In this document: piece by piece, positions 12,993-31,434 of the stretch | How the letters are laid out: each line of letters starts with the position of its first letter | How positions within the stretch are numbered: position 1 is the first letter of the stretch | IMG/VR virus record: IMGVR_UViG_3300027668_000009 | DNA from: an uncultured virus (IMG/VR IMGVR_UViG_3300027668_000009) | Taxonomy: Duplodnaviria > Heunggongvirae > Uroviricota > Caudoviricetes | Direction: 5' to 3' (one strand) | Length of the DNA: 57,864 nt | The notes under the pieces: model-generated | What the model saw: only the letters and a program-made list of their open reading frames with translations | Database searches by the model: none | Told to the model about the DNA's origin: nothing | Made by a program: the position numbers and the translations under genes

Positions 12993-13718
12993 CTATTTCA
13001 CCAAGGGGTTGCCTAGGGCATCTAAATTGAAAATAAATTCATCTATTGATGGTGGAGTATCTTGGGCGTCTCTTCTATCCGAACCTGCGTTCCCAATATG
13101 ATGTACTCTTGAATTGAATGATATACTGTATCTTTCTTTGTCGGTAGGATTAGGTTCTACCATATGCATTGCACCACTAGGAAACAATACAAGTCTTCCT
13201 CTAACTGGCATGTATCCGATACTCTCTTGATTTCTAGCAACGGATGGATGGTCTGCAACAACTTTAGGGTCACAGTTGATTAACTGAAGGTCTCCCTCGT
13301 CACCGTCTCCGTGTATGTAAAAGACTCCACTGTACCAACAACCATTATGTAAATGTGGTGTATTCCATGCACCCTTGTCATTGATGTTTGCCCATGTGTT
13401 ATCTATTTTGACTTGTGCATCGTCGGGATGAACTCTAAAGAATTGTTGTACTTCATCTCTCAACGTAGCTTCAATACATCTAATAATCTTTGCAAAGGCT
13501 GGATGTTTTTCAACACCATCTTGTGATTGCCAACCAGTATATCTATTTGATATCTGTCTACCCTTCGGGTCTCTTCTTCTCCACTCATCCATTTCTTTCT
13601 TAAGAGATATTAAGTATTCTTCTGATACTGAATCTTTACCATACCTTTCTTGGTCTAGTAAGTCTCTCTCAAATATGAATGTGGGGAATGCTAATCTAAC
13701 TGACATCTTGGTCTCCAA
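12993..13718 (-). CDS. 2OG-Fe(II) oxygenase-like protein (TIGR02466-type)
   Basis: FPTFIF start, WANIN...NTPHLH...YSGVFYI, LVLFPS..MHMVEPN...RYSISFN; true start may be MSVRLAFP. Confidence 0.85.
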   Translation of the reverse strand: METKMSVRLAFPTFIFERDLLDQERYGKDSVSEEYLISLKKEMDEWRRRDPKGRQISNRYTGWQSQDGVEKHPAFAKIIRCIEATLRDEVQQFFRVHPDDAQVKIDNTWANINDKGAWNTPHLHNGCWYSGVFYIHGDGDEGDLQLINCDPKVVADHPSVARNQESIGYMPVRGRLVLFPSGAMHMVEPNPTDKERYSISFNSRVHHIGNAGSDRRDAQDTPPSIDEFIFNLDALGNPLVK

Positions 13719-15879: not shown

Positions 15880-17454
15880 TTAGTCGCCAATTGGCAACTT
15901 TCTTTTCCATTTTAAAAAGTCTTCAAGATTATTTATGGTGCTATAATCCATCCCTTTTACCCAAGGGCCACCACGTGTGTAGTGAATCCCGCTGTAGTTA
16001 TATTTCTCTTCGTGATTATCGTATCCTTCTACGAAGATATAGTGTTCGGGTATCTTGGATATCTTCTCCGTCCACTCAAATTGGTGTAACTGTTTTCCTG
16101 TCCATGTATTAACTACTTCGGGTGTTAACTTCTTACAGTCTTCATGACCATTGTTGAACACCATCATACTAGACCAAAGTTTCCTAGGGTAATCTATGTT
16201 AACCTCACCATCAAACTTTGTCTCATCATGTTTGTATTGTGGATACTGAATACATGCAACAGCATCATTAGGGTTTAAGTAGTAGAACATTGGTAGTATA
16301 CTCTTCTTAAAGATGAAATCATCATCAATAAAGATACTAAATCCTTCATAGTTCTCTAAGTAAGGTATTAAGAATCTACTGTATGTAAACTCAGTACTTT
16401 GATTTGCATACTCTCTAGTATACTCTTCAATCTCTGCAATGTCAAGTATTTTAACTTCGGGTGCCCAATGACATTGGTCATGCATCCATCCTTTACCAAA
16501 GCCTTGTTGAATACTTTCTAAGATTGCATACTTAGATACTTTTGATAAGTCTCCATGTCTACTGTCATGACCGATATAGATTGTAAGTGGTTTACCTTTT
16601 GCAAGGTCAAACATCTGTTTGTTGAATTCATGTACTTCATCTCTGAAATCTAAATCCATCAATGCAGTATTGTATTCGATACACCCATCCACGTATGTAC
16701 ATGAGATATGATATGGTTTATTTAATCTTTCACACTTATTATACCACATCTGTAATACGCTGTCAAGGCTTGATGGTTCTACTTTGACCACATCATAACT
16801 ATCTAAGACCATGATTTCCATATCATTATCTTGCAACTCTTCAAAGACACCCGAACGAATAGAGCCTGGATGTATTCTAAAGGTATAAGTAGGTTCAGTA
16901 TTCAAACCAGTAATACCATTCTCAATTACGTAACCTTGAATAGGAGCTCTAAGACCTTCTTCTTGAATACTCTGAATTAACCAATGTGCTTTTGCACCAT
17001 GATAATACATTGATAGTAATGAACCTTCTGACTGTTCATTTCTGTCTACACCTTCCCAATCGATTAATGTGTCTAAATTAACATACCCATCTGCATCTTT
17101 CATGTCCATTCCAGCATGGCCTGGAATTGGTGTCCTAGGTTTCTCTGCATATCCTACTGGTAAAAACTTGTTATATATTACGGATTCATTTCTAAGACCA
17201 TTGAACCCACCAAATCTATTGTCCTTTCTTAGATACTCAAAGTCTTTCCACTTTGCAACTTTTACTGGGGGTAGAATTTCATCGAACAACCATTCTAATA
17301 TCTTGTATGATTCTTTGGTTTTATCTATGCTATCGAGATTAAAAGCACCTAGATGATAGGGCCCAAGGGATTGTCTGTCTTGTGACGTAAGATTTTTCCA
17401 ATCTTGTTTTGAGATAAGTTCTTTCGCTTGTTCTAAGGTCTCAATTTTCTGCAT
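15880..17454 (-). CDS. Two-domain protein: N-terminal ParB/Srx-like domain plus C-terminal GT-A glycosyltransferase
   Basis: C-half IYIGHDSR, STEFTYSRFLIPYL, DDD (DxD), YPRKLWSS, HYTRGGPW; N-half WLIQSIQEEGLRAPIQG...IHPGSIR. Confidence 0.8.
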   Translation of the reverse strand: MQKIETLEQAKELISKQDWKNLTSQDRQSLGPYHLGAFNLDSIDKTKESYKILEWLFDEILPPVKVAKWKDFEYLRKDNRFGGFNGLRNESVIYNKFLPVGYAEKPRTPIPGHAGMDMKDADGYVNLDTLIDWEGVDRNEQSEGSLLSMYYHGAKAHWLIQSIQEEGLRAPIQGYVIENGITGLNTEPTYTFRIHPGSIRSGVFEELQDNDMEIMVLDSYDVVKVEPSSLDSVLQMWYNKCERLNKPYHISCTYVDGCIEYNTALMDLDFRDEVHEFNKQMFDLAKGKPLTIYIGHDSRHGDLSKVSKYAILESIQQGFGKGWMHDQCHWAPEVKILDIAEIEEYTREYANQSTEFTYSRFLIPYLENYEGFSIFIDDDFIFKKSILPMFYYLNPNDAVACIQYPQYKHDETKFDGEVNIDYPRKLWSSMMVFNNGHEDCKKLTPEVVNTWTGKQLHQFEWTEKISKIPEHYIFVEGYDNHEEKYNYSGIHYTRGGPWVKGMDYSTINNLEDFLKWKRKLPIGD

Positions 17455-17491: not shown

Positions 17492-17516
17492 AAAAAAAAC
17501 CCCTCTTTCGAGGGGT
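17492..17516 (-). terminator. Intrinsic terminator after repeat gene A
   Basis: Minus strand ACCCCTC-GAAA-GAGGGGT followed by a T run; CTAAATA late-promoter variant just downstream (17479-17485). Confidence 0.9.
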
Positions 17517-17544
17517 CTTTATTCACTGTCGGGTAAGTTCCTAC

Positions 17545-18663
17545 CTATGCTGAAATTGGTGTTGCAGGCCACTGTTGTGAACCAACTCCATCCCATCTTG
17601 CTTCGGGGGTTTGACCCTGTCTTGCATATGTGAACGGACTTCTATGTTGGTACGTAAACGGTGTCTGACCAGTTCTATTGTAAGTAAACGGACTTCTATG
17701 TTGATATGTGAAAGGTGTTTGACCTTGTCTAGCATATGTACTAGGAGACCTGTGACTGTACGTAAACGGTGTCTGTCCAGTTCTTTGATACGTAAACGGT
17801 GTTTGTGCATTTCTTATATTAGGTTCTTGACCTGTTGCGATATAAGGGAAGTTAACCGCTGCATTTCTTATGTTAGGTTCTTGTGCATTTACAGGGTTTC
17901 TATAAGTGAACGGTGACCTATGTTGATAAGTAGCAGGTTGTCTAGCATTAGAAGGGTTCTGATAAGTGAACGGACTTCTATGGTTATACGTAAACGGTGA
18001 CTGACTGTTTCTAATATTAGGTTCCTGTGAAGAACGGATATTAGGTTCTTGGTTGTTTCTAATATTAGGCTCTTGTGCAGATACAGGGTTTCTGTAAGTG
18101 AACGGTGACCTATGGTTGTACGTAAATGGTGCTTGGTTATTCCTAATGTTAGGTTCTTGTATAGACCTAATGTTCGGTTCTTGAATACTTCTAATGTTAG
18201 GCTCTTGTGCAGATACAGGACTTCTGTAAGTGAACGGTGACCTGTAGTTGTACGTATATGGTGACCTATGGTTGTAAGTACTAGGTTGTCTTGCATTATT
18301 AGGCTGTCTTGCATTTGCAATATACGGTTGTCTATATGTAAACGGTTGCCTTGCACTGTTAGGTTGTCTTGCATTTGCAATATACGGTTGTCTATATGTA
18401 AACGGTTGTCTTGCATTATTAGGCTGTCTTGCACTTACTGGATGTCTGTATGTAAACGGATTCTGAAACGTAAATGGATTCTGTCCATTTGCTGGATATC
18501 TTGCGTTATATGTAAATGGTGCTTGGAATGTAAATGGTTGTTGAGCATTCGCAGGGTATCTTGCACTATATGTAAACGGTTGCTGTGATATCGAAGGCGA
18601 CCTTACGTTCACACTCGACTGAGCATTACGGATATTCGGTTGTTGTCTGTACCCTATTGGCAT
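17545..18663 (-). CDS. Pro-punctuated repeat protein A (mirror partner of B), putative fibre chain
   Basis: 372 aa = 8 + 344 repeat + 20; AGGA SD upstream. Confidence 0.85.
   Translation of the reverse strand: MPIGYRQQPNIRNAQSSVNVRSPSISQQPFTYSARYPANAQQPFTFQAPFTYNARYPANGQNPFTFQNPFTYRHPVSARQPNNARQPFTYRQPYIANARQPNSARQPFTYRQPYIANARQPNNARQPSTYNHRSPYTYNYRSPFTYRSPVSAQEPNIRSIQEPNIRSIQEPNIRNNQAPFTYNHRSPFTYRNPVSAQEPNIRNNQEPNIRSSQEPNIRNSQSPFTYNHRSPFTYQNPSNARQPATYQHRSPFTYRNPVNAQEPNIRNAAVNFPYIATGQEPNIRNAQTPFTYQRTGQTPFTYSHRSPSTYARQGQTPFTYQHRSPFTYNRTGQTPFTYQHRSPFTYARQGQTPEARWDGVGSQQWPATPISA
17608..18639 (-). repeat. Array of 47 units of 6/8/10 aa (PFTYxHRS, PNIRxxQx, PFTYRN, PVSAQE, PYIANARQ...)
   Basis: Parsed from translation; includes a near-perfect 60-nt tandem repeat around 18285-18432. 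Confidence 0.9.
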
Positions 18664-18711
18664 CTTAATAGTCCTGTTAAATTATTTGTCATTGTCATAT
18701 GTCTCATCAGC

Positions 18712-19962
18712 TTACGGCTCATAATAGTTAGGACTTCCGCCACCATAGGCAAAGTAGTATGTAAATGGTGACCTATGTTGATATGAACTAGGTGATTGTG
18801 CAATACTTGGAGTCTGAACATTCACCGACGAACGAGCATTGGCAATGTAAGGGACTCTATATGTAAACGGATTCCTTGCACTATTAGGTTGCCTTGCGTT
18901 AGCAATGTATGGTTGTCTATAAGTAAACGGTTGTCTTGCACTATTCGGTTGTCTCGCATTACTTGGTTGTTGATAAGTAAACGGTGCTTGGAATGTGAAA
19001 GGACTCTGTCCATTTGCTGGATACCTACTGTTGTAAGTAAACGGTGCTTGGAATGTAAACGGTGACTGACCATTTGCTGGATACCTACTGTTGTAAGTAA
19101 ACGGGGCTTGGAATGTAAACGGTGACTGACTGTTTCTAATATTAGGTTCTTGAATACTTCTAATGTTAGGTTGCTGAGCACTCACTGGGTTTCTATATGT
19201 AAATGGAGACCTATGGTTGTACGTAAACGGTGACCTATGGTTGTATGTGTAAGGAGACCTGTGATTGTATGTACTAGGTTGTCTTGCGTCTCTTATGTTA
19301 GGTTGCTGTGCATTTACAGGGTTTCTATAAGTGAACGGTGACCTGTGGTTATACGTTGATGGTGACCTATGGTTATAAGTAAACGGACTTCTGTGTTGAT
19401 ACGAAGCAGGTTGTCTTGCTTGACGTATGTTAGGTTCTTGTCCATTCACTGGGTTTCTGTAAGTGAAAGGAGTCTGACTATTACGTATGTTAGGTTCTTG
19501 TCCGTTTACTGGGTTTCTATATGTAAATGGAGACCTATATTGATAAGTAACAGGTTGTTGACCTACATTATTGTAAGTAAATGGAGACCTATGTTGATAC
19601 GTACTAGGTTGTCTTGCATTAGCAATGTAAGGATACGGTTGTTGTGCAGACCTAATGTTAGGTTCTTGGTTGTTAGCAATGTACGGATACGGTTGCTGTG
19701 CATCTCTTATGTTTGGTTCTTGTCCAGTTGCAATATAAGGATACGGTTGTTGTGCATCTCTTATGTTTGGTTGCTGACCAGCTGCAATGTATGGATATGG
19801 AATTTGCGTTGCAGTTTGCCCTGACGCATTATTCCATCCAGTAGGAGTCTTAACATAAATTTGGTCGACGGCCTTCCATGTAGTAGAACCTGTCTTTACC
19901 CATGCACCTTGAGTTGAATTCCAACCCGACGGTGTTTTGACCTTTTGTGAACCTGTTGCCAT
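18712..19962 (-). CDS. Pro-punctuated repeat protein B with N-terminal VK..W beta-motif domain, putative fibre chain
   Basis: 416 aa = 54 + 344 repeat + 18; N-terminus KVKTPSGW..AWVKTGSTTWKAVDQIYVKTPTGW; AATAAATA at 19987-19994. Confidence 0.85.
   Translation of the reverse strand: MATGSQKVKTPSGWNSTQGAWVKTGSTTWKAVDQIYVKTPTGWNNASGQTATQIPYPYIAAGQQPNIRDAQQPYPYIATGQEPNIRDAQQPYPYIANNQEPNIRSAQQPYPYIANARQPSTYQHRSPFTYNNVGQQPVTYQYRSPFTYRNPVNGQEPNIRNSQTPFTYRNPVNGQEPNIRQARQPASYQHRSPFTYNHRSPSTYNHRSPFTYRNPVNAQQPNIRDARQPSTYNHRSPYTYNHRSPFTYNHRSPFTYRNPVSAQQPNIRSIQEPNIRNSQSPFTFQAPFTYNSRYPANGQSPFTFQAPFTYNSRYPANGQSPFTFQAPFTYQQPSNARQPNSARQPFTYRQPYIANARQPNSARNPFTYRVPYIANARSSVNVQTPSIAQSPSSYQHRSPFTYYFAYGGGSPNYYEP
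18769..19800 (-). repeat. Array of 47 units of 6/8/10 aa, mirror image of the array in gene A
   Basis: Parsed from translation; includes a near-perfect 60-nt tandem repeat around 18975-19130. Confidence 0.9.
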
Positions 19963-20013
19963 TTAGTTATCCATTAATTATATTGTTATTTATTAAGATT
20001 CTAAACCCCTATT

Positions 20014-27070: not shown

Positions 27071-28198
27071 TTATGTTTGGTACTGAGCAGATGGTACAGA
27101 TTGGTGTATTTTCCTTGCTGTACCTTGGTCGTTTACATGTAGTTCTGATAATTTTTTAAGAGTTCCACCATCATTTACAAAGATACCTTTGACCTTTGCA
27201 TATCTAGGTATGACTCTTGTTGTCGCATATGTTACTTGATATGTGAACGGACTTCTATGTTGATATGAAACTTGACTTCCAGCGTTATAGAAGAATGGTG
27301 TTTGTGAGTTTCTTATATTAGGTTCTTGTCCAGCAACAGCAGACTGATAAGTAAACGGACTTCTATGTTGGTACGTAAACGGTGTCTGACTACTAGCAAT
27401 GTATGGGTAAGGTAATTGTGCATTCCTAATATTAGGTTCTTGTCCAGTTGCTTGATACGTATATGTTATATCATGATTGGCTGCGACTGGAGTTCGACCA
27501 GTTCTATTATAAGTAAACGGACTTCTATGTTGATACGTGAACGGTAACTGACCAGTATTTTGATAAGTAAATGGTGTCTGACTTACCTTTACAACATTAG
27601 TCTGAGCGTTACTAGGATTCCTATATGTGAAAGGAGTTCTAGACTGATAGGTAGCAGGTTGCAGTCCTTGTCTTGAATACGTAAATGGACTTCTTCTATC
27701 ATAAGTAAACGGACTCTGATGCTGATACTCGGATGGTTGTCTTGTGTCCCTAATGTTAGGTTCTTGAGCATTCACTGGACTTCTATAAGTAAATGGACTT
27801 TGATGACTGTATTCAGAAGGGTTTCTTCCTTGAGCAATGTACGGATACGGTTGTTGTTGTTGTCTAGTATCTTGATACGTCAATGGACTTCTATGATTGT
27901 ATTCTGCTGGTTGTCTTGCCTCTCTTATGTTTGGCTCTTGTGCAGATACAGGACTTCTATACGTAAACGGACTTTGATGTTGATACGTAAACGGTGTTTG
28001 TACCGTTGTTGGATGCCTGTAAATTGCAGATACTTGACCCTGTCTTGCATAAGTAGAAGGTTGTTGAGCATCCCTAATGTTTGGTTCCTGTCCAGTTGCA
28101 ATGTACGGATACGGTTGCTGTGCATTTGCGATAGAAGGTGTTCTATATGAAACTATAGAAGGGTGCTGATATATGAATGGTTGTTGTCCTGTTGCCAT
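27071..28198 (-). CDS. Pro-punctuated repeat protein D (mirror partner of C), with C-terminal KVKGIFVNDGG beta-motif domain
   Basis: Start revised to ATG at 28198 (MATGQQ), 1 nt after the stop of C, GGAGGAG upstream; 6 + 322 repeat + 47 aa. Confidence 0.85.
   Translation of the reverse strand: MATGQQPFIYQHPSIVSYRTPSIANAQQPYPYIATGQEPNIRDAQQPSTYARQGQVSAIYRHPTTVQTPFTYQHQSPFTYRSPVSAQEPNIREARQPAEYNHRSPLTYQDTRQQQQPYPYIAQGRNPSEYSHQSPFTYRSPVNAQEPNIRDTRQPSEYQHQSPFTYDRRSPFTYSRQGLQPATYQSRTPFTYRNPSNAQTNVVKVSQTPFTYQNTGQLPFTYQHRSPFTYNRTGRTPVAANHDITYTYQATGQEPNIRNAQLPYPYIASSQTPFTYQHRSPFTYQSAVAGQEPNIRNSQTPFFYNAGSQVSYQHRSPFTYQVTYATTRVIPRYAKVKGIFVNDGGTLKKLSELHVNDQGTARKIHQSVPSAQYQT
27215..28180 (-). repeat. Array of 41 units, mirror image of the array in gene C
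   Basis: Parsed from translation. Confidence 0.85.
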
Positions 28199-28199
28199 G

Positions 28200-29858
28200 T
28201 TATAAAGGAGCTCCTCCACCTTTTGCTGATACTAGTCTTACTGTTTGATTTGATGGCCCTGTTGTATACAAAGTAGTTTCACCAGTCTTGTAAACTCTTA
28301 ATTGGATTTGCACTGCCGTACTCATCATTTCTGCATAAGGGTTTTGATTCGAGTTCCCACTATTTGTAGACCATTTGAATTCGACGCCCGTTTGAGACGA
28401 ACCATTCCAAACATTATGCCATGTGTTTTTAGCCTTTGCACCAGTTGGATTACTACTATCAAATGGGGCTTTAGCACTACCACCGAACTGTTGTGTCTTT
28501 TGGTCAGCACTTGAAGTCCACTTCACATCAATAGACCAACTGTTATCAATTGGACTGTATACATCAATGTAGTCTTCATATGCAGGCCCTATCTGTGCAG
28601 AGTCTACTGCATACCAGTTTGTTTTTACTTTGTTGACATTACTTCCACTAGTTTGATAGTTGAATTCCATACTTGCAGCTGCCGAAGTTGCAAAGTTTGC
28701 TGTATACGACCTTTGTGTATCCCAAGTTCTGTTTGTTGTTCCTTGTGAACTTTGGGCATTTGTATGTTGGGCTGCACTATTGCCTGGGCCCCAAGTAGTA
28801 TTACCTACCCCATTATCATCTCCATCTACACCATCAAAGATGAAAGGAGTTCTTCCTACTGCTGGAGACCTTTGACTTGTAGTTGCTGGAGTCTGTACAT
28901 TATATGTGAAAGGTGTTTGACCCTGTCTTGCATATGTAAATGGACTTCTGTGTTGGTACGTAAATGGTGACCTAGCATTTGCAATGTACGGATATGGTGT
29001 CTGTGACTCCGAAGGTTGCTGAGCGTCTGAGGGTTGTCTTGCGTTTCTAATGTTAGGTTCTTGACCACTCACTGGGTTTCTATATGTAAATGGAGACCTG
29101 TAATTGTACGTAAACGCTGTTTGGTTATTCCTAATATTAGGTTCTTGAGTTGTCACTGATACAGTATAAGTAGTAGGTGTTTGACCAGTTCTCTGATACG
29201 TAAACGGTGATTGATTGTTTCTAATGTTAGGTTCTCGACCCGACACTGGGTTTCTATAAGTGAAAGGAGACCTGTGTTGATAATCAACTAATGCTTGTGC
29301 ATTCCTAATATTGGGTTCTTGACCAGCTGCGATATTAGGTTCTTGTCCAGTTGCAATATAAGGATAAGGTATTTGTGAGTTTGCAATATTTGGTTGTTGC
29401 CCACTTACTGGATTCTGATAAGTGAACGGACTAGGATGCTGATAAAAACCCGAGGCTCTTGCCTGTGCTATATAAGGGTAAGGTTGTTGTGCATTCCTTC
29501 CATTCGGTTCTTGTCCAGTTGCAATATAAGGATAAGGTTGTTGATGTTGATATATTGCTGGTTGTTGTCCAGTCCTAACATATGTAAACGGTGACCTATG
29601 TTGATACGCTGCTGGAGATTGTCCTTGTCTTACATAAGTACTAGGTTGTCTTGCATTTCTTATGTTAGGTTCTTGTGCAGATACAGGATTGTTGTAAATG
29701 AACGGACTTCTGTGTTGATAAGTATTTGGTTGACGTGCGTTTGCTGGAGACTGTATTGCTACCTGTCGTATATTAGGTTCTTGGGCATTTGCGGGAACTC
29801 TAGCAATATAAGGTTGCTGAATCTCCGTCGCTATATTTACAAAAGTTTCTTCAGACAT
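28200..29858 (-). CDS. Pro-punctuated repeat protein C with C-terminal ~215-aa globular domain
   Basis: 552 aa = 15 + 322 repeat + 215 non-repetitive Trp/Ser/Thr/Asn-rich domain. Confidence 0.85.
   Translation of the reverse strand: MSEETFVNIATEIQQPYIARVPANAQEPNIRQVAIQSPANARQPNTYQHRSPFIYNNPVSAQEPNIRNARQPSTYVRQGQSPAAYQHRSPFTYVRTGQQPAIYQHQQPYPYIATGQEPNGRNAQQPYPYIAQARASGFYQHPSPFTYQNPVSGQQPNIANSQIPYPYIATGQEPNIAAGQEPNIRNAQALVDYQHRSPFTYRNPVSGREPNIRNNQSPFTYQRTGQTPTTYTVSVTTQEPNIRNNQTAFTYNYRSPFTYRNPVSGQEPNIRNARQPSDAQQPSESQTPYPYIANARSPFTYQHRSPFTYARQGQTPFTYNVQTPATTSQRSPAVGRTPFIFDGVDGDDNGVGNTTWGPGNSAAQHTNAQSSQGTTNRTWDTQRSYTANFATSAAASMEFNYQTSGSNVNKVKTNWYAVDSAQIGPAYEDYIDVYSPIDNSWSIDVKWTSSADQKTQQFGGSAKAPFDSSNPTGAKAKNTWHNVWNGSSQTGVEFKWSTNSGNSNQNPYAEMMSTAVQIQLRVYKTGETTLYTTGPSNQTVRLVSAKGGGAPL
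28848..29813 (-). repeat. Array of 41 units of 6/8/10/12 aa
   Basis: Parsed from translation. Confidence 0.85.
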
Positions 29859-29859
29859 A

Positions 29860-31434
29860 TCATATCACAAACCATAGGTGTCCAACTTCGGTTCCATCCA
29901 CACTACTAGGAGCCGATGACACTATTTCATAATCCAATTGTATTTTATCTGTAACAAGACTGCCTGAGTGTTTTAACCCATGGCCTGGGTCTGTTGCAAA
30001 CGTTAATGCATTTCCATCACCAGTATATGTTTCAGTAATACCAGTACCACCCACTGTCAATGCAGCGACATCGTTATCTCCGTATGTAGGAACTCCAGTA
30101 AGTATAATTTTGTCAGCTGCATCGTCATATGATGCAGTGATGTTTGTATGAGAACTATGATTTAATAGTCCCGACACTTTGTCTTGTGCAAATTCTTGGA
30201 AAGTTACTCCACTGAATGTTAGGTTACCAGCAATATCTACGTTGCCACTTACATCTAATGAACCTGCGTCTAGTTCACCACTAAGTGTAACGTTTCTGAA
30301 TCCAGTGATGTCTTTGTTTGCATCTACTACGACTGTTCTATTTGCAACTATGGTTCCTTGAGTTGAACCATCATTGAAGTTTAGTTCGGTTGCAGTTGAA
30401 CTTACGGTCACACCGTTAAGTGAGAACCCATCTGTTTCAAGAATACCATCAACGTCAACGTTACCACTGATATCTAAAGAACCTGCGTCGAGTTCTCCAG
30501 TCAATGTTATATTTCTGAATCCAGTAATGTCTTTGTTTGTATCTACTGCAACTGCTTTACTAGCAATTACAGTTCCATTTGTTAGGTCATCGATTTTTTC
30601 TAAATCTGTTTGGTCTATTCTTGCACTTCCGATTACGAATTCACTTCCAGCAATTATGTCTGTAGATGACGTAATGTCTCCACCAGCTTGAACTGTTGAA
30701 GTTAGAACTGCAGTCGTACCACTTAGATTACCGTTGAATACTGTTGATGTGATTGCAGTAAATCCTGTACCCACACCGCCTGTAATCGTTGCTGTTGAGT
30801 CGGTAAAGGTTGGTGCGGTGATTGTATGTCCTGTGTCTACTGTAAGATTGCCATTAAGGAAGGTCTTACCGTATAATTCTATATCATTGGTACCTGTAAG
30901 AGTTGTTACCCTACTGGCTGCATCTGCATAGTTACCATTTATAATAACACCGTTATCGTTATGATTATAAATTGTATTTGCAGCGGTCTCTGTAAAGAAA
31001 CCTATTGCAGTTCCACCTTCAGTTGATGTACCTAAGTATGAACCTGTGAATGAGTATATGACAACCATGTCATCAACATTAACGGCTGCCGTTAAAGTGA
31101 TTCTGAAATAGATATTTCCAACAACTTGAGAGATAGAGTAGTCAGCACCCTCTAATAATAGAGTAGAATTTTTGAATACTTGGAACCTATCTTGTCTTAG
31201 TCTAAGTGTATTATTAAAATCATCTACACCTTGGAATACTGTTTGACCTGCTGTTGAGGTATAGATAAACTCTTGAAAGAAAAACGATTTGTCTTCTAGA
31301 CTATTCAGAGCATCGATTACCGTTTCGGTATTCTCCGTTCTTAAGCCAGACTTATCACCAACGTCAACTGCTAATTCGTTGTACTTGGTTCTAAACTGTT
31401 CAATAGTTGAGTATGTGTCTACTGTCTTTGCCAT
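29860..31434 (-). CDS. Tail fibre/appendage protein
   Basis: MAKTVDTYSTIEQFRTKYNEL start, TAGQTVF motif, duplicated VDxNKDITGFRNxTLxGELDAGSLDxSGNVD; C-terminal SSAPSSVDGTEVGHLWFVI. Confidence 0.8.
   Translation of the reverse strand: MAKTVDTYSTIEQFRTKYNELAVDVGDKSGLRTENTETVIDALNSLEDKSFFFQEFIYTSTAGQTVFQGVDDFNNTLRLRQDRFQVFKNSTLLLEGADYSISQVVGNIYFRITLTAAVNVDDMVVIYSFTGSYLGTSTEGGTAIGFFTETAANTIYNHNDNGVIINGNYADAASRVTTLTGTNDIELYGKTFLNGNLTVDTGHTITAPTFTDSTATITGGVGTGFTAITSTVFNGNLSGTTAVLTSTVQAGGDITSSTDIIAGSEFVIGSARIDQTDLEKIDDLTNGTVIASKAVAVDTNKDITGFRNITLTGELDAGSLDISGNVDVDGILETDGFSLNGVTVSSTATELNFNDGSTQGTIVANRTVVVDANKDITGFRNVTLSGELDAGSLDVSGNVDIAGNLTFSGVTFQEFAQDKVSGLLNHSSHTNITASYDDAADKIILTGVPTYGDNDVAALTVGGTGITETYTGDGNALTFATDPGHGLKHSGSLVTDKIQLDYEIVSSAPSSVDGTEVGHLWFVI

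What the first reader, a model, noticed from the sequence alone, without database searches (positions are those of the whole stretch)
17545..19962. Two adjacent proteins are unit-by-unit 'reverse complements' of each other: a peptide pairing code
Seen: cutting protein B (18712-19962) at its periodic prolines gives unit lengths N->C 10,8,10,8,10,8,10,8,10,8,6,6,8,6,6,8,8,8,8,6,6,8,8,8,8,6,6,8,8,6,8,6,6,8,6,6,6,6,6,6,8,6,6,8,6,6,8 (47 units, 344 aa). Protein A (17545-18663) read C->N gives the same series (344 aa; three boundaries lack Pro and were placed by motif). Opposed units follow fixed rules in both directions: PNIRxxQx with PxTYx(H/Y)RS; PYPYIAxxQx with PFTYxRxGQT; PFTY(R/Q)x with PV(N/S)AQE/PSNARQ/PANGQS; PFTFQ(A/N) with PN(S/N)AR(Q/N); PFTYxxRY with PYIANAR(Q/S); SVNVxx with PSIxQx. 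For example, each run of three HRS units in B faces a run of three PNIR units in A. This is not a DNA inverted repeat (the antisense of the PNIR codons reads SNVR-type peptides). All spacings are even, as expected for beta strands. Inference: A and B zip into an antiparallel two-chain beta ribbon about 110-120 nm long (344 x ~0.33 nm), perhaps trimerised into a needle-like virion fibre, with register set by an aperiodic complementary code. I do not recognise this as a described system.
Basis: partly seen in the sequence, partly recalled or inferred. Interest (0 to 1): 0.97.

Follow-up and report, generated by a model that had tools for sequence, protein, structure and literature searches.

The report
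Two phage proteins that zip antiparallel
Two neighbouring genes of an uncultured marine T4-like phage encode proline-punctuated repeat proteins whose repeat units are complementary in mirror order, and dozens of related phages keep that mirror through matched insertions and deletions, which points to a previously undescribed peptide pairing code that holds two chains together along a long fibre.

Summary
The two repeat cores are both exactly 344 aa. Of 46 proline-cut boundaries, 44 coincide when A is read backwards against B, against 11 read forwards and at most 29 in 200,000 shuffles. It is not a DNA inverted repeat or an antisense effect.

Comparative evidence:
- All 55 distinct B/A gene pairs from related viral contigs keep the mirror, with cores of 192-544 aa and length correlation r=0.98.
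- The cognate partner ranks first for 39 of 46 pairs.
- Indels between relatives recur at mirrored positions with the same size.
- A near-deterministic unit code holds over 1,776 unit pairs.
- Covariation between partner units lies only at even positions, as one face of paired beta strands would give.

The window holds a second, orthogonal mirror pair, C/D. Single-chain relatives join a C-like and a D-like arm in one self-complementary protein.

Best reading: obligate antiparallel two-chain beta stalks of host-recognition fibres. Physical pairing, oligomeric state and length are untested, because the complex predictor was unavailable and AlphaFold2 confidence was poor. No family, structure or paper describing this was found.

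The parts
18712..19962 (-). Gene B, 416 aa: a 54-aa N-terminal non-repeat domain, a 344-aa repeat core and an 18-aa tail
   Evidence: ORF and translation. 448 homologues at E<=1e-3. No PHROG; the only Pfam hit is Cementoin.
19801..19962 (-). B N-terminal domain (aa 1-54), conserved; it marks the anchored end of the pair
   Evidence: Many invariant columns in 18 relatives. The mirror offset is -34 or -35 in 44 of 55 pairs, so the alignment is anchored at this end.
18769..19800 (-). B repeat core (aa 55-398): 47 units of 6, 8 or 10 aa, each starting with Pro
   Evidence: The core contains no K, L, M, C or W.
18664..18711 (-). 48-nt spacer between B and A
17545..18663 (-). Gene A, 372 aa: an 8-aa head, a 344-aa repeat core and a 20-aa conserved C-terminal tail (RWDG..WPATPIS)
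17608..18639 (-). A repeat core (aa 9-352), the mirror complement of the B core
17495..17520 (-). Terminator-like hairpin plus T run directly after A, which suggests B and A are one transcription unit
   Evidence: Consensus scan only; sequence.
28200..29858 (-). Gene C, 552 aa: the first chain of a second mirror pair, with a repeat arm and a 215-aa C-terminal all-beta domain
   Evidence: AlphaFold2 of the domain (28203-28847) gave pLDDT 79.5 and pTM 0.80.
27071..28198 (-). Gene D, 375 aa from the ATG one base after C's stop: the partner of C, with a repeat arm and a conserved C-terminal domain
   Evidence: C against reversed D gives 32 coincident Pro boundaries at one offset (next best 22, forward 19). 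Cross pairs C/A, C/B, B/D and A/D give at most 21. Start codon.

Best explanation
B and A are the two chains of one fibre stalk.

Proposed mechanism:
- They lie side by side in opposite directions along their whole 344-residue repeat cores. B's N-terminal domain sits next to A's C-terminal tail at one end, and B's C-terminus sits next to A's N-terminus at the other.
- Every unit starts with Pro and belongs to one of two classes. One class is 'PxTY...' units. The other is their partners (PNIR.., PYIA.., PYPYIA.., PV/N-N-A-Q/R..).
- A unit of one class always faces an equally long unit of the other class.
- The chains are most likely beta strands paired in one two-stranded ribbon. Residues at even positions of both chains share one face and carry the partner specificity. 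The near-invariant odd positions (T3, R7 / I3, Q7) and the prolines are generic.
- Even spacing lets all prolines of both chains sit at non-hydrogen-bonded edge positions.
- The aperiodic order of the few unit-pair types fixes one register and one partner, much as a nucleotide sequence does in a duplex. This lets the phage build two different stalks (B/A and C/D) in one cell without mispairing.
- The genes lie in the host-recognition cluster of a T4-like marine myophage, so the stalks are most likely virion fibres whose length evolves by matched block insertions and deletions in both genes.

Shown here: the mirror, the code, its conservation, the compensated indels, the parity of covariation, the orthogonality of the two pairs, and the split/fused relation to single-chain relatives.

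Inferred: direct binding, beta-ribbon geometry and the fibre role.

Open: the oligomeric state.
For: Window:
- 45 coincident Pro boundaries at one offset, against at most 26 in every control.
- 44 of 46 boundaries coincide, and none of 200,000 shuffles reached that; 41 of 42 equal-length mirrored segments pair a TY unit with a non-TY unit.

Relatives:
- 75 of 79 viral loci carry the adjacent pair.
- In all 55 distinct pairs the mirror score exceeds the forward score, and 44 of 55 share offset -34/-35.
- The cognate A ranks first for 39 of 46 B; mean F is 0.79 against 0.43 for non-cognate partners.
- Core lengths measured independently correlate at r=0.98 over 192-544 aa.
- Indels between relatives match in size at mirrored positions: 44 and 8 / 44 and 8; 26, 14, 16 / 26, 14, 16; 88 / 88; 18 / 18 three times; 16 / 16; 8, 16, 16 / 8, 16, 16. 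The complex cases agree in net length.

Code over 1,776 unit pairs:
- PYPYIA faces PxTYxxxGxx in 184 of 187.
- PNIR faces xTYxHRS in 223 of 230, and the reverse holds in 249 of 261.
- PYIA faces xTYxxR(Q/Y) in 169 of 174.
- PVNAQE-type faces PFTYRN-type in 208 of 210.
- PNNARQ faces PFTF in 51 of 54.
- PARQ faces PFTY in 12 of 12.

Geometry:
- Excess mutual information occurs only between even positions and in anti-diagonal order. For 8-mers: I2-II6 0.87, I2-II8 0.66, I6-II2 0.75, I6-II4 0.80, I8-II2 0.62, I8-II4 0.59 bits. The variable odd positions 5/5' stay near 0.

Second pair and single-chain forms:
- A second pair, C/D, lies in the window and is orthogonal to B/A. It is conserved in 7 loci, 5 of them distinct.
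- Single-chain relatives such as P0070 have an N-arm that mirrors the C-arm by the same code. P0070's N-terminus aligns with C and its C-terminus with D.
- The low-confidence AlphaFold2 model of P0070 pairs strands 14-37 with 417-440, 45-49 with 405-409 and 55-57 with 397-399. All sum to 454, one residue off the boundary register and of the parity that the covariation predicts.

Context:
- The genes sit in a T4-like structural module among tail-fibre-like genes.
- This is the region between the VrlC-like gene and the neck genes, called the host recognition cluster in pelagimyophages (passages of PMC7029224).
Against: - No physical or structural evidence exists. The complex predictor never ran.
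- AlphaFold2 on the single-chain relative had mean pLDDT 35.5, with only the base of the stalk at 50-65.
- Seven of 46 pairs do not rank their own partner first. Some near-identical relatives carry a whole-block indel in one gene only: L002 has an exact 44-aa tandem duplication in A; L004 is 88 aa shorter in B; L013 is 44 aa shorter in A; L022 is 18 aa shorter in B. If real, these variants show that mismatches are tolerated. They may instead be repeat mis-assemblies.
- Divergent members show a weak or absent Pro-based mirror: L109 scores 29 against 27 and L110 scores 9 against 8. Of 42 single-chain relatives, 29 do not follow the TY/non-TY rule.
- Seven-residue units in distant relatives do not fit the all-prolines-on-one-edge argument.
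- The related loci are not phylogenetically independent.
- No virion proteomics exists, and five cultured relatives lack the genes.
Confidence: 0.75

Rival explanations
1. A is a full-length templating chaperone for B rather than a permanent partner. It pairs with B during folding to hold it extended and in register, as downstream tail-fibre assembly genes do in other phages, and is then released. The mature fibre would contain B only.
For: The gene order, fibre gene followed by a smaller partner on the same strand, is the usual fibre/chaperone layout (general knowledge, recalled). A has almost no domains beyond the repeat core. All the covariation shows pairing, not permanence.
Against: Single-chain relatives keep both arms in one polypeptide. 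One locus has the order A then B (L108). A conserved C-terminal tail on A lies next to B's conserved N-terminal domain, as expected for a joint attachment end. A stoichiometric chaperone as long as its client would be costly.
Confidence: 0.1
2. The two chains do pair in mirror order, but not as one long ribbon. Each chain folds into a stack of short strands, one unit per strand with Pro at the turns. The two stacks pack face to face, giving a short cross-beta rod of roughly 0.48 nm per unit, about 20-25 nm, instead of about 115 nm.
For: Equal unit lengths and even-even, anti-diagonal covariation would also fit antiparallel face-to-face packing of facing strands. Unit lengths of 6-10 residues are typical of strand lengths.
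Against: Long runs of one unit class within a chain (seven class-II units at the start of B, ten TY units at the end of A) show no complementarity between in-chain neighbours, which such a stack would pair. There is no Gly or Asn-Gly turn signal at unit borders. A residue before Pro disfavours tight turns (established stereochemistry, recalled). The AlphaFold2 model, though weak, draws 24-residue continuous strands across several prolines.
Confidence: 0.1
3. A and B do not touch each other. Each lines up in opposite chain direction on a common third component, or each forms its own homo-oligomer, and the shared unit lengths reflect that common ruler.
For: Mirror-equal unit lengths alone could come from a shared template.
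Against: This does not explain why a TY unit always faces a non-TY unit (41 of 42 in the window; table). It does not explain why covariation links specific positions of the two chains. No third co-varying repeat gene lies beside the pair. Self-mirror scores are at background, at most 26.
Confidence: 0.03
4. The pattern is a by-product of nucleic-acid-level processes with no protein-level meaning: an inverted repeat, sense/antisense coding, gene conversion between tandem repeats or mis-assembly.
For: There is a small peak of base complementarity, 37% at a 3-nt shift against a mean of 24.6% (sd 3.5). The repeats are recombination-prone, as block indels show.
Against: No minus-strand blastn hit appeared even at word size 7 and E=10. 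In-register complementarity is 23%, and the antisense translation is at most 13% identical with 9-32 stops. The same mirror recurs with 46 different unit series from many independent assemblies.
Confidence: 0.01

Closest known systems
Needle domain of the phage T4 long tail fibre tip protein gp37 (recalled, not fetched here)
   Same: It is a phage fibre made of very long antiparallel beta strands that run out and back, so that strands of opposite direction lie side by side over a long distance. The single-chain relatives found here (P0070 type) have that out-and-back topology with a domain at the turn.
   Different: gp37 is a homotrimer of single chains with His-x-His metal sites. Here the out and back strands are two separate gene products. 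No HxH occurs in A, B, C or D. There is no sequence relation to any solved structure. Specificity lies in a two-class unit code with Pro-delimited units.
Obligate heterodimeric coiled coils (type I/II keratins, orthogonal designed coiled-coil pairs; recalled)
   Same: Partner choice and register are written in short repeated units. Several orthogonal pairs can coexist in one cell.
   Different: Those are alpha-helical, usually parallel, with a 7-residue repeat. Here the evidence points to beta strands (period-2 covariation), strictly antiparallel, with units of 4-10 residues in aperiodic order.
Repeat shafts of viral fibres (adenovirus and reovirus triple beta-spiral, T4 gp12/gp34 repeats; recalled)
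   Same: They are fibre shafts built from short sequence repeats with conserved Pro or Gly, encoded among tail or host-recognition genes.
   Different: Those are homotrimers of one gene product with one repeat type, about 15 residues in the beta-spiral. No second, complementary chain is involved, and there is no mirror order.
Split versus fused gene pairs ('Rosetta stone' logic)
   Same: C and D in the window correspond to the N-terminal and C-terminal arms of single-chain proteins such as P0070. This is the classical genomic sign that two proteins interact.
   Different: Here the two parts are also complementary unit by unit, which gives the geometry of the interaction, not only its existence.
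Cementoin repeats of trappins (Pfam PF10511)
   Same: B scores 43.2 bits against a cut-off of 27 on this hexapeptide-repeat model.
   Different: The match is a resemblance of Pro/Gln-rich hexapeptides. Cementoin works as a Gln+Lys transglutaminase substrate (recalled), and the repeat cores here contain no Lys. A scores below the cut-off, 21.7 bits.

Membership tests
T4 gp37-type fibre needle | His-x-His metal-binding motifs along the needle | tested here: not met
   0 HxH in A, B, C and D.
T4 gp37-type fibre needle | Sequence relation to the solved protein | tested here: not met
   phmmer of B and C against all PDB chains gave 0 hits at E<=1.
T4 gp37-type fibre needle | Homotrimer in which each chain runs out and back | not testable with these tools
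   The window has two chains instead of one. Single-chain relatives exist. The oligomeric state is unknown because the complex predictor was unavailable.
Triple beta-spiral fibre shaft (adenovirus/reovirus) | About 15-residue pseudo-repeat of one type in a single gene product | tested here: not met
   The units are 6, 8 and 10 aa in aperiodic order and lie in two complementary gene products.
Collagen-like fibre | Gly-X-Y triplet runs | tested here: not met
   No run of three or more G-x-x triplets in A, B, C or D.
Cementoin (PF10511) | Pfam model above the gathering score | tested here: inconclusive
   B scores 43.2 bits (cut-off 27). A scores 21.7 bits, below the cut-off.
Cementoin (PF10511) | Gln and Lys donor/acceptor residues for transglutaminase cross-linking (recalled) | tested here: not met
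   0 Lys in either 344-aa core.
Hint/intein-like C-terminal autoprocessing domain | Hint domain after a Gly-Gly-Cys junction, ending in His-Asn | tested here: not met
   The window's B ends 18 aa after the core and has no Hint hit. By a motif test, 45 of 55 B-like homologues in the top-120 list do carry it (Pfam column; P0001).
Sense/antisense complementary peptides | One protein is encoded by the reverse complement of the other's gene | tested here: not met
   No minus-strand similarity. The antisense translation is at most 13% identical.
T4-like phage host-recognition (tail fibre) module | Location between baseplate/VrlC-like genes and the neck genes gp13/gp14 | tested here: met
   PHROG assignments along the window. 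Region definition from passages of PMC7029224.
T4-like phage host-recognition (tail fibre) module | Presence of the protein in virions | not testable with these tools
   No cultured phage with the genes was found: 0 of 5 isolates, with the positive control.

The most novel reading that the evidence does not exclude
Marine T4-like phages use a natural, programmable beta-strand 'hybridisation code'. A small alphabet of Pro-delimited unit pairs (4-10 residues, two complementary classes) is written in aperiodic order in two genes. The two chains can then zip only with each other, only antiparallel and only in one register, over 60-180 nm. One phage carries at least two orthogonal pairs. Fibre length evolves by duplicating or deleting a block in one gene and its complement at the mirrored place in the other. 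The ribbons may further assemble, for example threefold, through their invariant face. In many relatives a Hint domain at B's far end may process or seal the tip.
Probability: 0.5. Interest if true: 0.95.

Novelty: categorically new. Interest (0 to 1): 0.92.

Why it matters
If the pairing is physical, this would be the first natural example known to me of an extended, sequence-addressable recognition code between two beta strands. It would be a protein counterpart of duplex hybridisation. In this code, partner, polarity and register are set by the order of a few complementary peptide units.

- It would explain how very long, thin fibres of defined length can be built without slippage or amyloid-like side growth.
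- It would give a direct read-out of fibre length from sequence in uncultured phages. Cores range from 192 to 544 aa.
- It would offer a ready-made set of orthogonal beta-zipper modules for protein and nanomaterial design, an area where rules for heterospecific beta pairing are still scarce.
- It is also an unusually clean natural case of compensatory length co-evolution between two genes.

The family is large: 448 homologues of B at E<=1e-3. It has no name, no structure and no paper in the libraries searched (and five literature searches: 21, 50, 70, 84 and 85).

Tried and rejected
- **DNA inverted repeat or RNA pairing:** rejected.
- **Antisense coding:** rejected.
- **Self-complementary hairpins or homodimers of A or B alone:** self-mirror scores are at background, 25-26 against 45.
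- **Plain forward paralogy:** forward scores are 25 and 11 of 46. Homologous DNA blocks do exist, but in reversed block order.
- **Phage database searches:** megablast of the region, and tblastn of B and of its N-terminal domain, found nothing. BLAST's low-complexity filter may hide repeats. I therefore searched five isolate genomes (Melnitz-3, Mosig, HTVC008M, P-HM2, S-T4) six-frame with HMMER. None of the five matched. All four positive-control records matched.
- **Complex prediction:** the job was B 1-228 with A 179-372, both as alignments. It never ran, so no statement on binding comes from it.
- **AlphaFold2 of the single-chain relative P0070** (42-sequence alignment): mean pLDDT 35.5, usable only as a weak hint.
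- **Tip domain of C:** it folds well but has no clear structural relative. Foldseek against the PDB gave no hit at E<=0.001. The VIA wide search gave best Z 4.7, to pilus subunits. This is inconclusive.
- **Tip domain relatives:** only 8 clusters among 1.84 billion representatives.
- **B's N-terminal domain versus D's C-terminal domain:** my by-eye resemblance is not supported by BLASTP.
- **ESM Atlas:** only unnamed viral clusters.
- **Host inference from genome contigs:** 4 loci in 3 metagenome bins of three different orders, probably phage contigs binned by mistake, so no host call.
- **Earlier findings of this scan:** none for this genome.
Full report
**The observation**

The window carries two adjacent genes on the minus strand. 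B is 18712-19962 (416 aa). A lies 48 nt downstream at 17545-18663 (372 aa).

- A boundary-coincidence test that needs no parsing gives 45 shared Pro boundaries at one single offset for B against reversed A. The forward comparison, both self comparisons and both self-reversed comparisons peak at 24-26.
- The two repeat cores are both exactly 344 aa.
- With anchored ends, 44 of 46 boundaries coincide in mirror order and 11 in forward order. None of 200,000 shuffles of A's segment order exceeded 29.
- Of the 42 mirrored segments of equal length, 41 oppose a 'PxTY' unit to a non-TY unit. Sliding the chains by one to four units in either direction drops this to 8-12.
- The cores contain no Lys, Leu, Met, Cys or Trp.

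**It is not a nucleic-acid effect**

- blastn between the two genes at word size 7 gave only same-strand hits. These show homologous blocks lying in reversed block order: B 900-1127 with A 126-353, B 582-824 with A 384-626, B 405-477 with A 723-795.
- In-register base complementarity between the cores is 23%. The best value at any shift within 60 nt is 37%, at a 3-nt shift, against a mean of 24.6% (sd 3.5).
- The antisense translation of B is at most 13% identical to A and is full of stops.

**Context**

- The window is the structural module of a T4-like myophage. PHROG assignments cover baseplate hub and wedge proteins, a VrlC-like 2,265-aa protein, tail-fibre-like proteins, neck proteins, terminase, sheath, portal and scaffold.
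- The nearest cultured relatives of its gp6 are Methylophilales phage Melnitz and the Pelagibacter myophages Mosig and HTVC008M, at about 40% identity.
- B/A lie between the VrlC-like gene and the neck genes. The pelagimyophage paper (passages of PMC7029224) calls this stretch the hypervariable 'host recognition cluster', which holds tail fibres and glycosyltransferases.
- A terminator-like hairpin follows A directly.
- Neither protein has a PHROG family. The only Pfam hit is the hexapeptide-repeat model Cementoin: B 43.2 bits, A below the cut-off. I read this as a composition resemblance, since the cores lack the Lys that family needs.

**Relatives keep the mirror**

B has 448 homologues at E<=1e-3 in the protein collection. 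A scan of viral contigs returned 79 loci. Of these, 75 carry a B-like gene and an A-like gene side by side, giving 55 distinct pairs.

- In all 55 the mirror score exceeds the forward score.
- In 44 of 55 the offset is -34 or -35. The alignment is therefore anchored where B's conserved N-terminal domain meets A's conserved C-terminal tail.
- I dropped two pairs whose B is cut by a contig end (L028, L077) and collapsed identical Pro-spacing series. That leaves 46 pairs.
- The cognate A is the best mirror partner for 39 of the 46 B. Mean F is 0.79, against 0.43 for non-cognate combinations.
- Core lengths measured separately in each protein range from 192 to 544 aa and correlate at r=0.98.

**Compensated insertions and deletions**

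I aligned B with B and A with A for 17 pairs of related loci. The indels recur at mirrored positions with the same sizes:

| Loci compared | Indels in B (aa) | Indels in A (aa) |
|---|---|---|
| L001/L005 | +44 near 143, +8 near 320 | +44 near 149, +8 near 318 |
| L003/L007 | 26, 14, 16 | 26, 14, 16 |
| L015/L007 | 44 | 44 |
| L003/L010 | 88 | 88 |
| L029/L033 | 18 | 18 |
| L025/L048 | 18 | 18 |
| L024/L051 | 18 | 18 |
| L042/L047 | 16 | 16 |
| L049/L035 | 8, 16, 16 | 8, 16, 16 |
| L058/L069 | 18, 18, 8, 12 | 18, 18, 8, 14 |

- Three cases with messier alignments agree in net length: +80/+80, +28/+28 and +8/+8.
- Three comparisons disagree in part: L057/L065, L040/L035 and L037/L053.
- These comparisons are not phylogenetically independent. 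The variety of sizes and positions still implies several separate compensated events.

**The code**

Over 1,776 matched segments from the 46 pairs, the unit classes pair almost deterministically:

- PYPYIA-10 faces PxTYxxxGxx in 184 of 187, and the reverse holds in 35 of 36.
- PNIR-8 faces xTYxHRS in 223 of 230, and the reverse holds in 249 of 261.
- PYIA-8 faces xTYxxRQ or xTYxxRY in 169 of 174.
- PFTYRN-6 faces the PVNAQE type in 194 of 235, and the reverse holds in 208 of 210.
- PNNARQ faces PFTF in 51 of 54.
- PARQ-4 faces PFTY-4 in 12 of 12.

Loci with quite different unit orders obey the same rules. The general rule is that each rung has one 'PxTY' unit and one unit of the other class, equal in length.

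**Geometry from covariation**

Excess mutual information between partner units is confined to even positions of both units and runs anti-diagonally.

- In 8-mers: I2-II6 0.87, I2-II8 0.66, I6-II2 0.75, I6-II4 0.80, I8-II2 0.62 and I8-II4 0.59 bits.
- The variable odd positions 5 and 5' show about 0.
- Same-end pairs such as I2-II2 or I6-II6 show about 0.1.
- The same pattern holds for 6-mers and 10-mers.
- Odd positions are near-invariant: T3 96% and R7 96% in TY units, I3 99% in partners.

A period of two, one shared face and opposite polarity are what two antiparallel beta strands in one ribbon would give. The covarying sums (i+j = L or L+2, not L+1) place Pro opposite or diagonal to Pro. 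With even unit lengths, every proline of both chains can then sit at a non-hydrogen-bonded edge position. That last point is an inference from standard beta-sheet geometry, not a result.

**A second, orthogonal pair and single-chain forms**

- The window holds another pair. C is 28200-29858 (552 aa). D is 27071-28198 (375 aa), starting one base after C's stop.
- C against reversed D shares 32 Pro boundaries at one offset, with a next best of 22 and a forward score of 19. All cross combinations (C/A, C/B, B/D, A/D) stay at or below 21. The two pairs are therefore mutually orthogonal by this measure.
- C/D pairs recur in 7 of 10 related loci, 5 of them distinct. Mirror scores are 27-39 against forward scores of 17-22. 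They often lie on the same contigs as B/A pairs.
- Among the homologues are single-chain proteins of about 480 aa, such as P0070 and P0029. Their N-terminal arm (about 16-152) mirrors their C-terminal arm (about 299-434) by the same code, around a 150-aa non-repeat middle.
- P0070's N-terminus aligns with C's N-terminus, and its C-terminal arm and end domain align with D's. C and D thus correspond to a split form of such a hairpin protein.
- The rule is clear in 13 of the 42 family members examined. The other 29, more distant, do not follow the TY/non-TY test. At least some of them use other units, including mirrored 7-residue units.

**Structure prediction**

- AlphaFold2 on P0070 with a 42-sequence alignment was poor, with mean pLDDT 35.5. 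It modelled only the base of the stalk, as long paired strands: 14-37 with 417-440, 45-49 with 405-409 and 55-57 with 397-399. All sum to 454, and pLDDT there is 50-65.
- That register is one residue off the boundary register, which is the parity the covariation predicts. I treat this as a weak hint only.
- The complex predictor was full and then closed, so no A/B model exists.
- C's 215-aa C-terminal domain folds confidently as an all-beta domain, with pLDDT 79.5 and pTM 0.80.
- That domain has no clear structural relative and only 8 sequence clusters in 1.84 billion representatives.
- Its position at the far end of the C/D stalk would suit a receptor-binding tip, but that is inference.

**Exceptions, told in full**

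- Seven of 46 pairs do not rank their own partner first. Three of them are near-identical sister loci (L034, L063, L065).
- The others are variants in which one gene alone differs from a near-identical relative by a whole block:
  - L002 has the window's B exactly, but its A carries an exact 44-aa (six-unit) tandem duplication.
  - L004's B is 88 aa shorter than its relatives' B, while its A is 99.8% identical to theirs.
  - L013's A is 44 aa shorter than that of its near-identical relatives.
  - L022's B is 18 aa shorter.
  - L064 and L065 differ in both genes.
- These may be real, uncompensated polymorphisms or mis-assemblies of repeats in short-read metagenomes. I could not tell which.
- Four more loci came from metagenome bins:
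  - Two keep the mirror well: L107 with 24 of 27, and L108 with 24 of 26. L108 has the gene order A then B.
  - Two divergent ones do not by the Pro-based test: L109 scores 29 against 27, and L110 scores 9 against 8.

**Comparison with what is known**

- No solved structure is related by sequence.
- The ESM Atlas returns only unnamed viral clusters.
- Five cultured relatives lack the genes (with the control).
- Five full-text searches found nothing that describes paired, mirror-complementary fibre proteins. Searches were seen as listings and abstracts only, apart from passages of PMC7029224.
- The closest kinds are listed here from memory; none was fetched:
  - the out-and-back beta needle of T4 gp37;
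  - homotrimeric repeat shafts of viral fibres;
  - heterospecific coiled coils.
- The system differs from all of them in having two gene products, a two-class unit code, strict mirror order and compensated length evolution.

**Verdict**

What remains to be shown is physical: binding, beta-ribbon geometry, stoichiometry, length and location on the virion.

Noticed in passing
window 27071-29858 (-): A second mirror-complementary gene pair, C (552 aa, with a 215-aa all-beta C-terminal domain) and D (375 aa). It is orthogonal to B/A by the Pro-boundary test.
   Followed up: yes
homologues P0001-P0068; loci L053, L056, L058, L072, L078: Most B-like homologues in the protein collection (45 of 55 by a motif test) carry a C-terminal Hint/intein-like domain after a Gly-rich stretch and a Cys, ending in His-Asn. 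The window's B lacks it. Other B forms end in an unrelated domain of about 150 aa (L042 type). This domain might cut itself off after assembly, or might activate B's C-terminus next to A's N-terminus. Neither idea was tested.
   Followed up: partly
P0070, P0029 and relatives: Single-chain proteins whose two arms are mirror-complementary around a 150-aa middle domain. The N-arm is C-like, and the C-arm and end domain are D-like.
   Followed up: yes
L002, L004, L013, L022, L064/L065: Near-identical relatives in which only one of the two genes has a whole-block indel of 18, 44 or 88 aa. In L002 it is an exact six-unit tandem duplication in A beside a B identical to the window's. These are either real polymorphisms or repeat mis-assemblies.
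   Followed up: partly
L108 (metagenome bin contig): The gene order is inverted, with the A-like gene before the B-like gene, yet the mirror is kept (24 of 26 Pro boundaries).
   Followed up: partly
P0133 and similar: Distant single-chain relatives use mirrored 7-residue units (PVAAVQQ / PIAAYRS type), so even unit length is not universal in the wider family.
   Followed up: partly
window 15880-17454 (-) and 12993-13718 (-): Just downstream of A lie a 524-aa protein with a weak glycosyltransferase family 8 match (20.4 bits, below the cut-off) and, further on, a 2OG-Fe(II) oxygenase (PF13759, 71.6 bits). Whether they modify the Pro-, Thr- and Tyr-rich fibre proteins is unknown.
   Followed up: no
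window 18001-20000 and 28001-30000: GC skew on the + strand turns positive (+0.21 and +0.09) exactly over the two repeat-gene pairs, against a negative background. This probably reflects their peculiar codon composition.
   Followed up: no
window 17611-17916, 18268-18588, 19369-19824 (+): Long open frames run antisense to A and B (101-151 aa). They are most likely a by-product of the stop-poor antisense of a Leu- and Ser(TCA)-poor repeat, not genes.
   Followed up: no
cores of A and B, 3-nt shift: There is a modest peak of base complementarity between the two cores at a one-codon shift, 37% against a mean of 24.6%. By eye it comes partly from Arg AGG codons lying opposite Pro CCT codons. It is too weak for pairing, and its cause was not examined.
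   Followed up: no
L107-L110: Homologous pairs occur on contigs binned into Verrucomicrobiales, Sphingobacteriales and Rhodobacterales metagenome-assembled genomes, including contigs of 111 and 121 kb. These are probably phage genomes mis-binned, so they give no host information.
   Followed up: no
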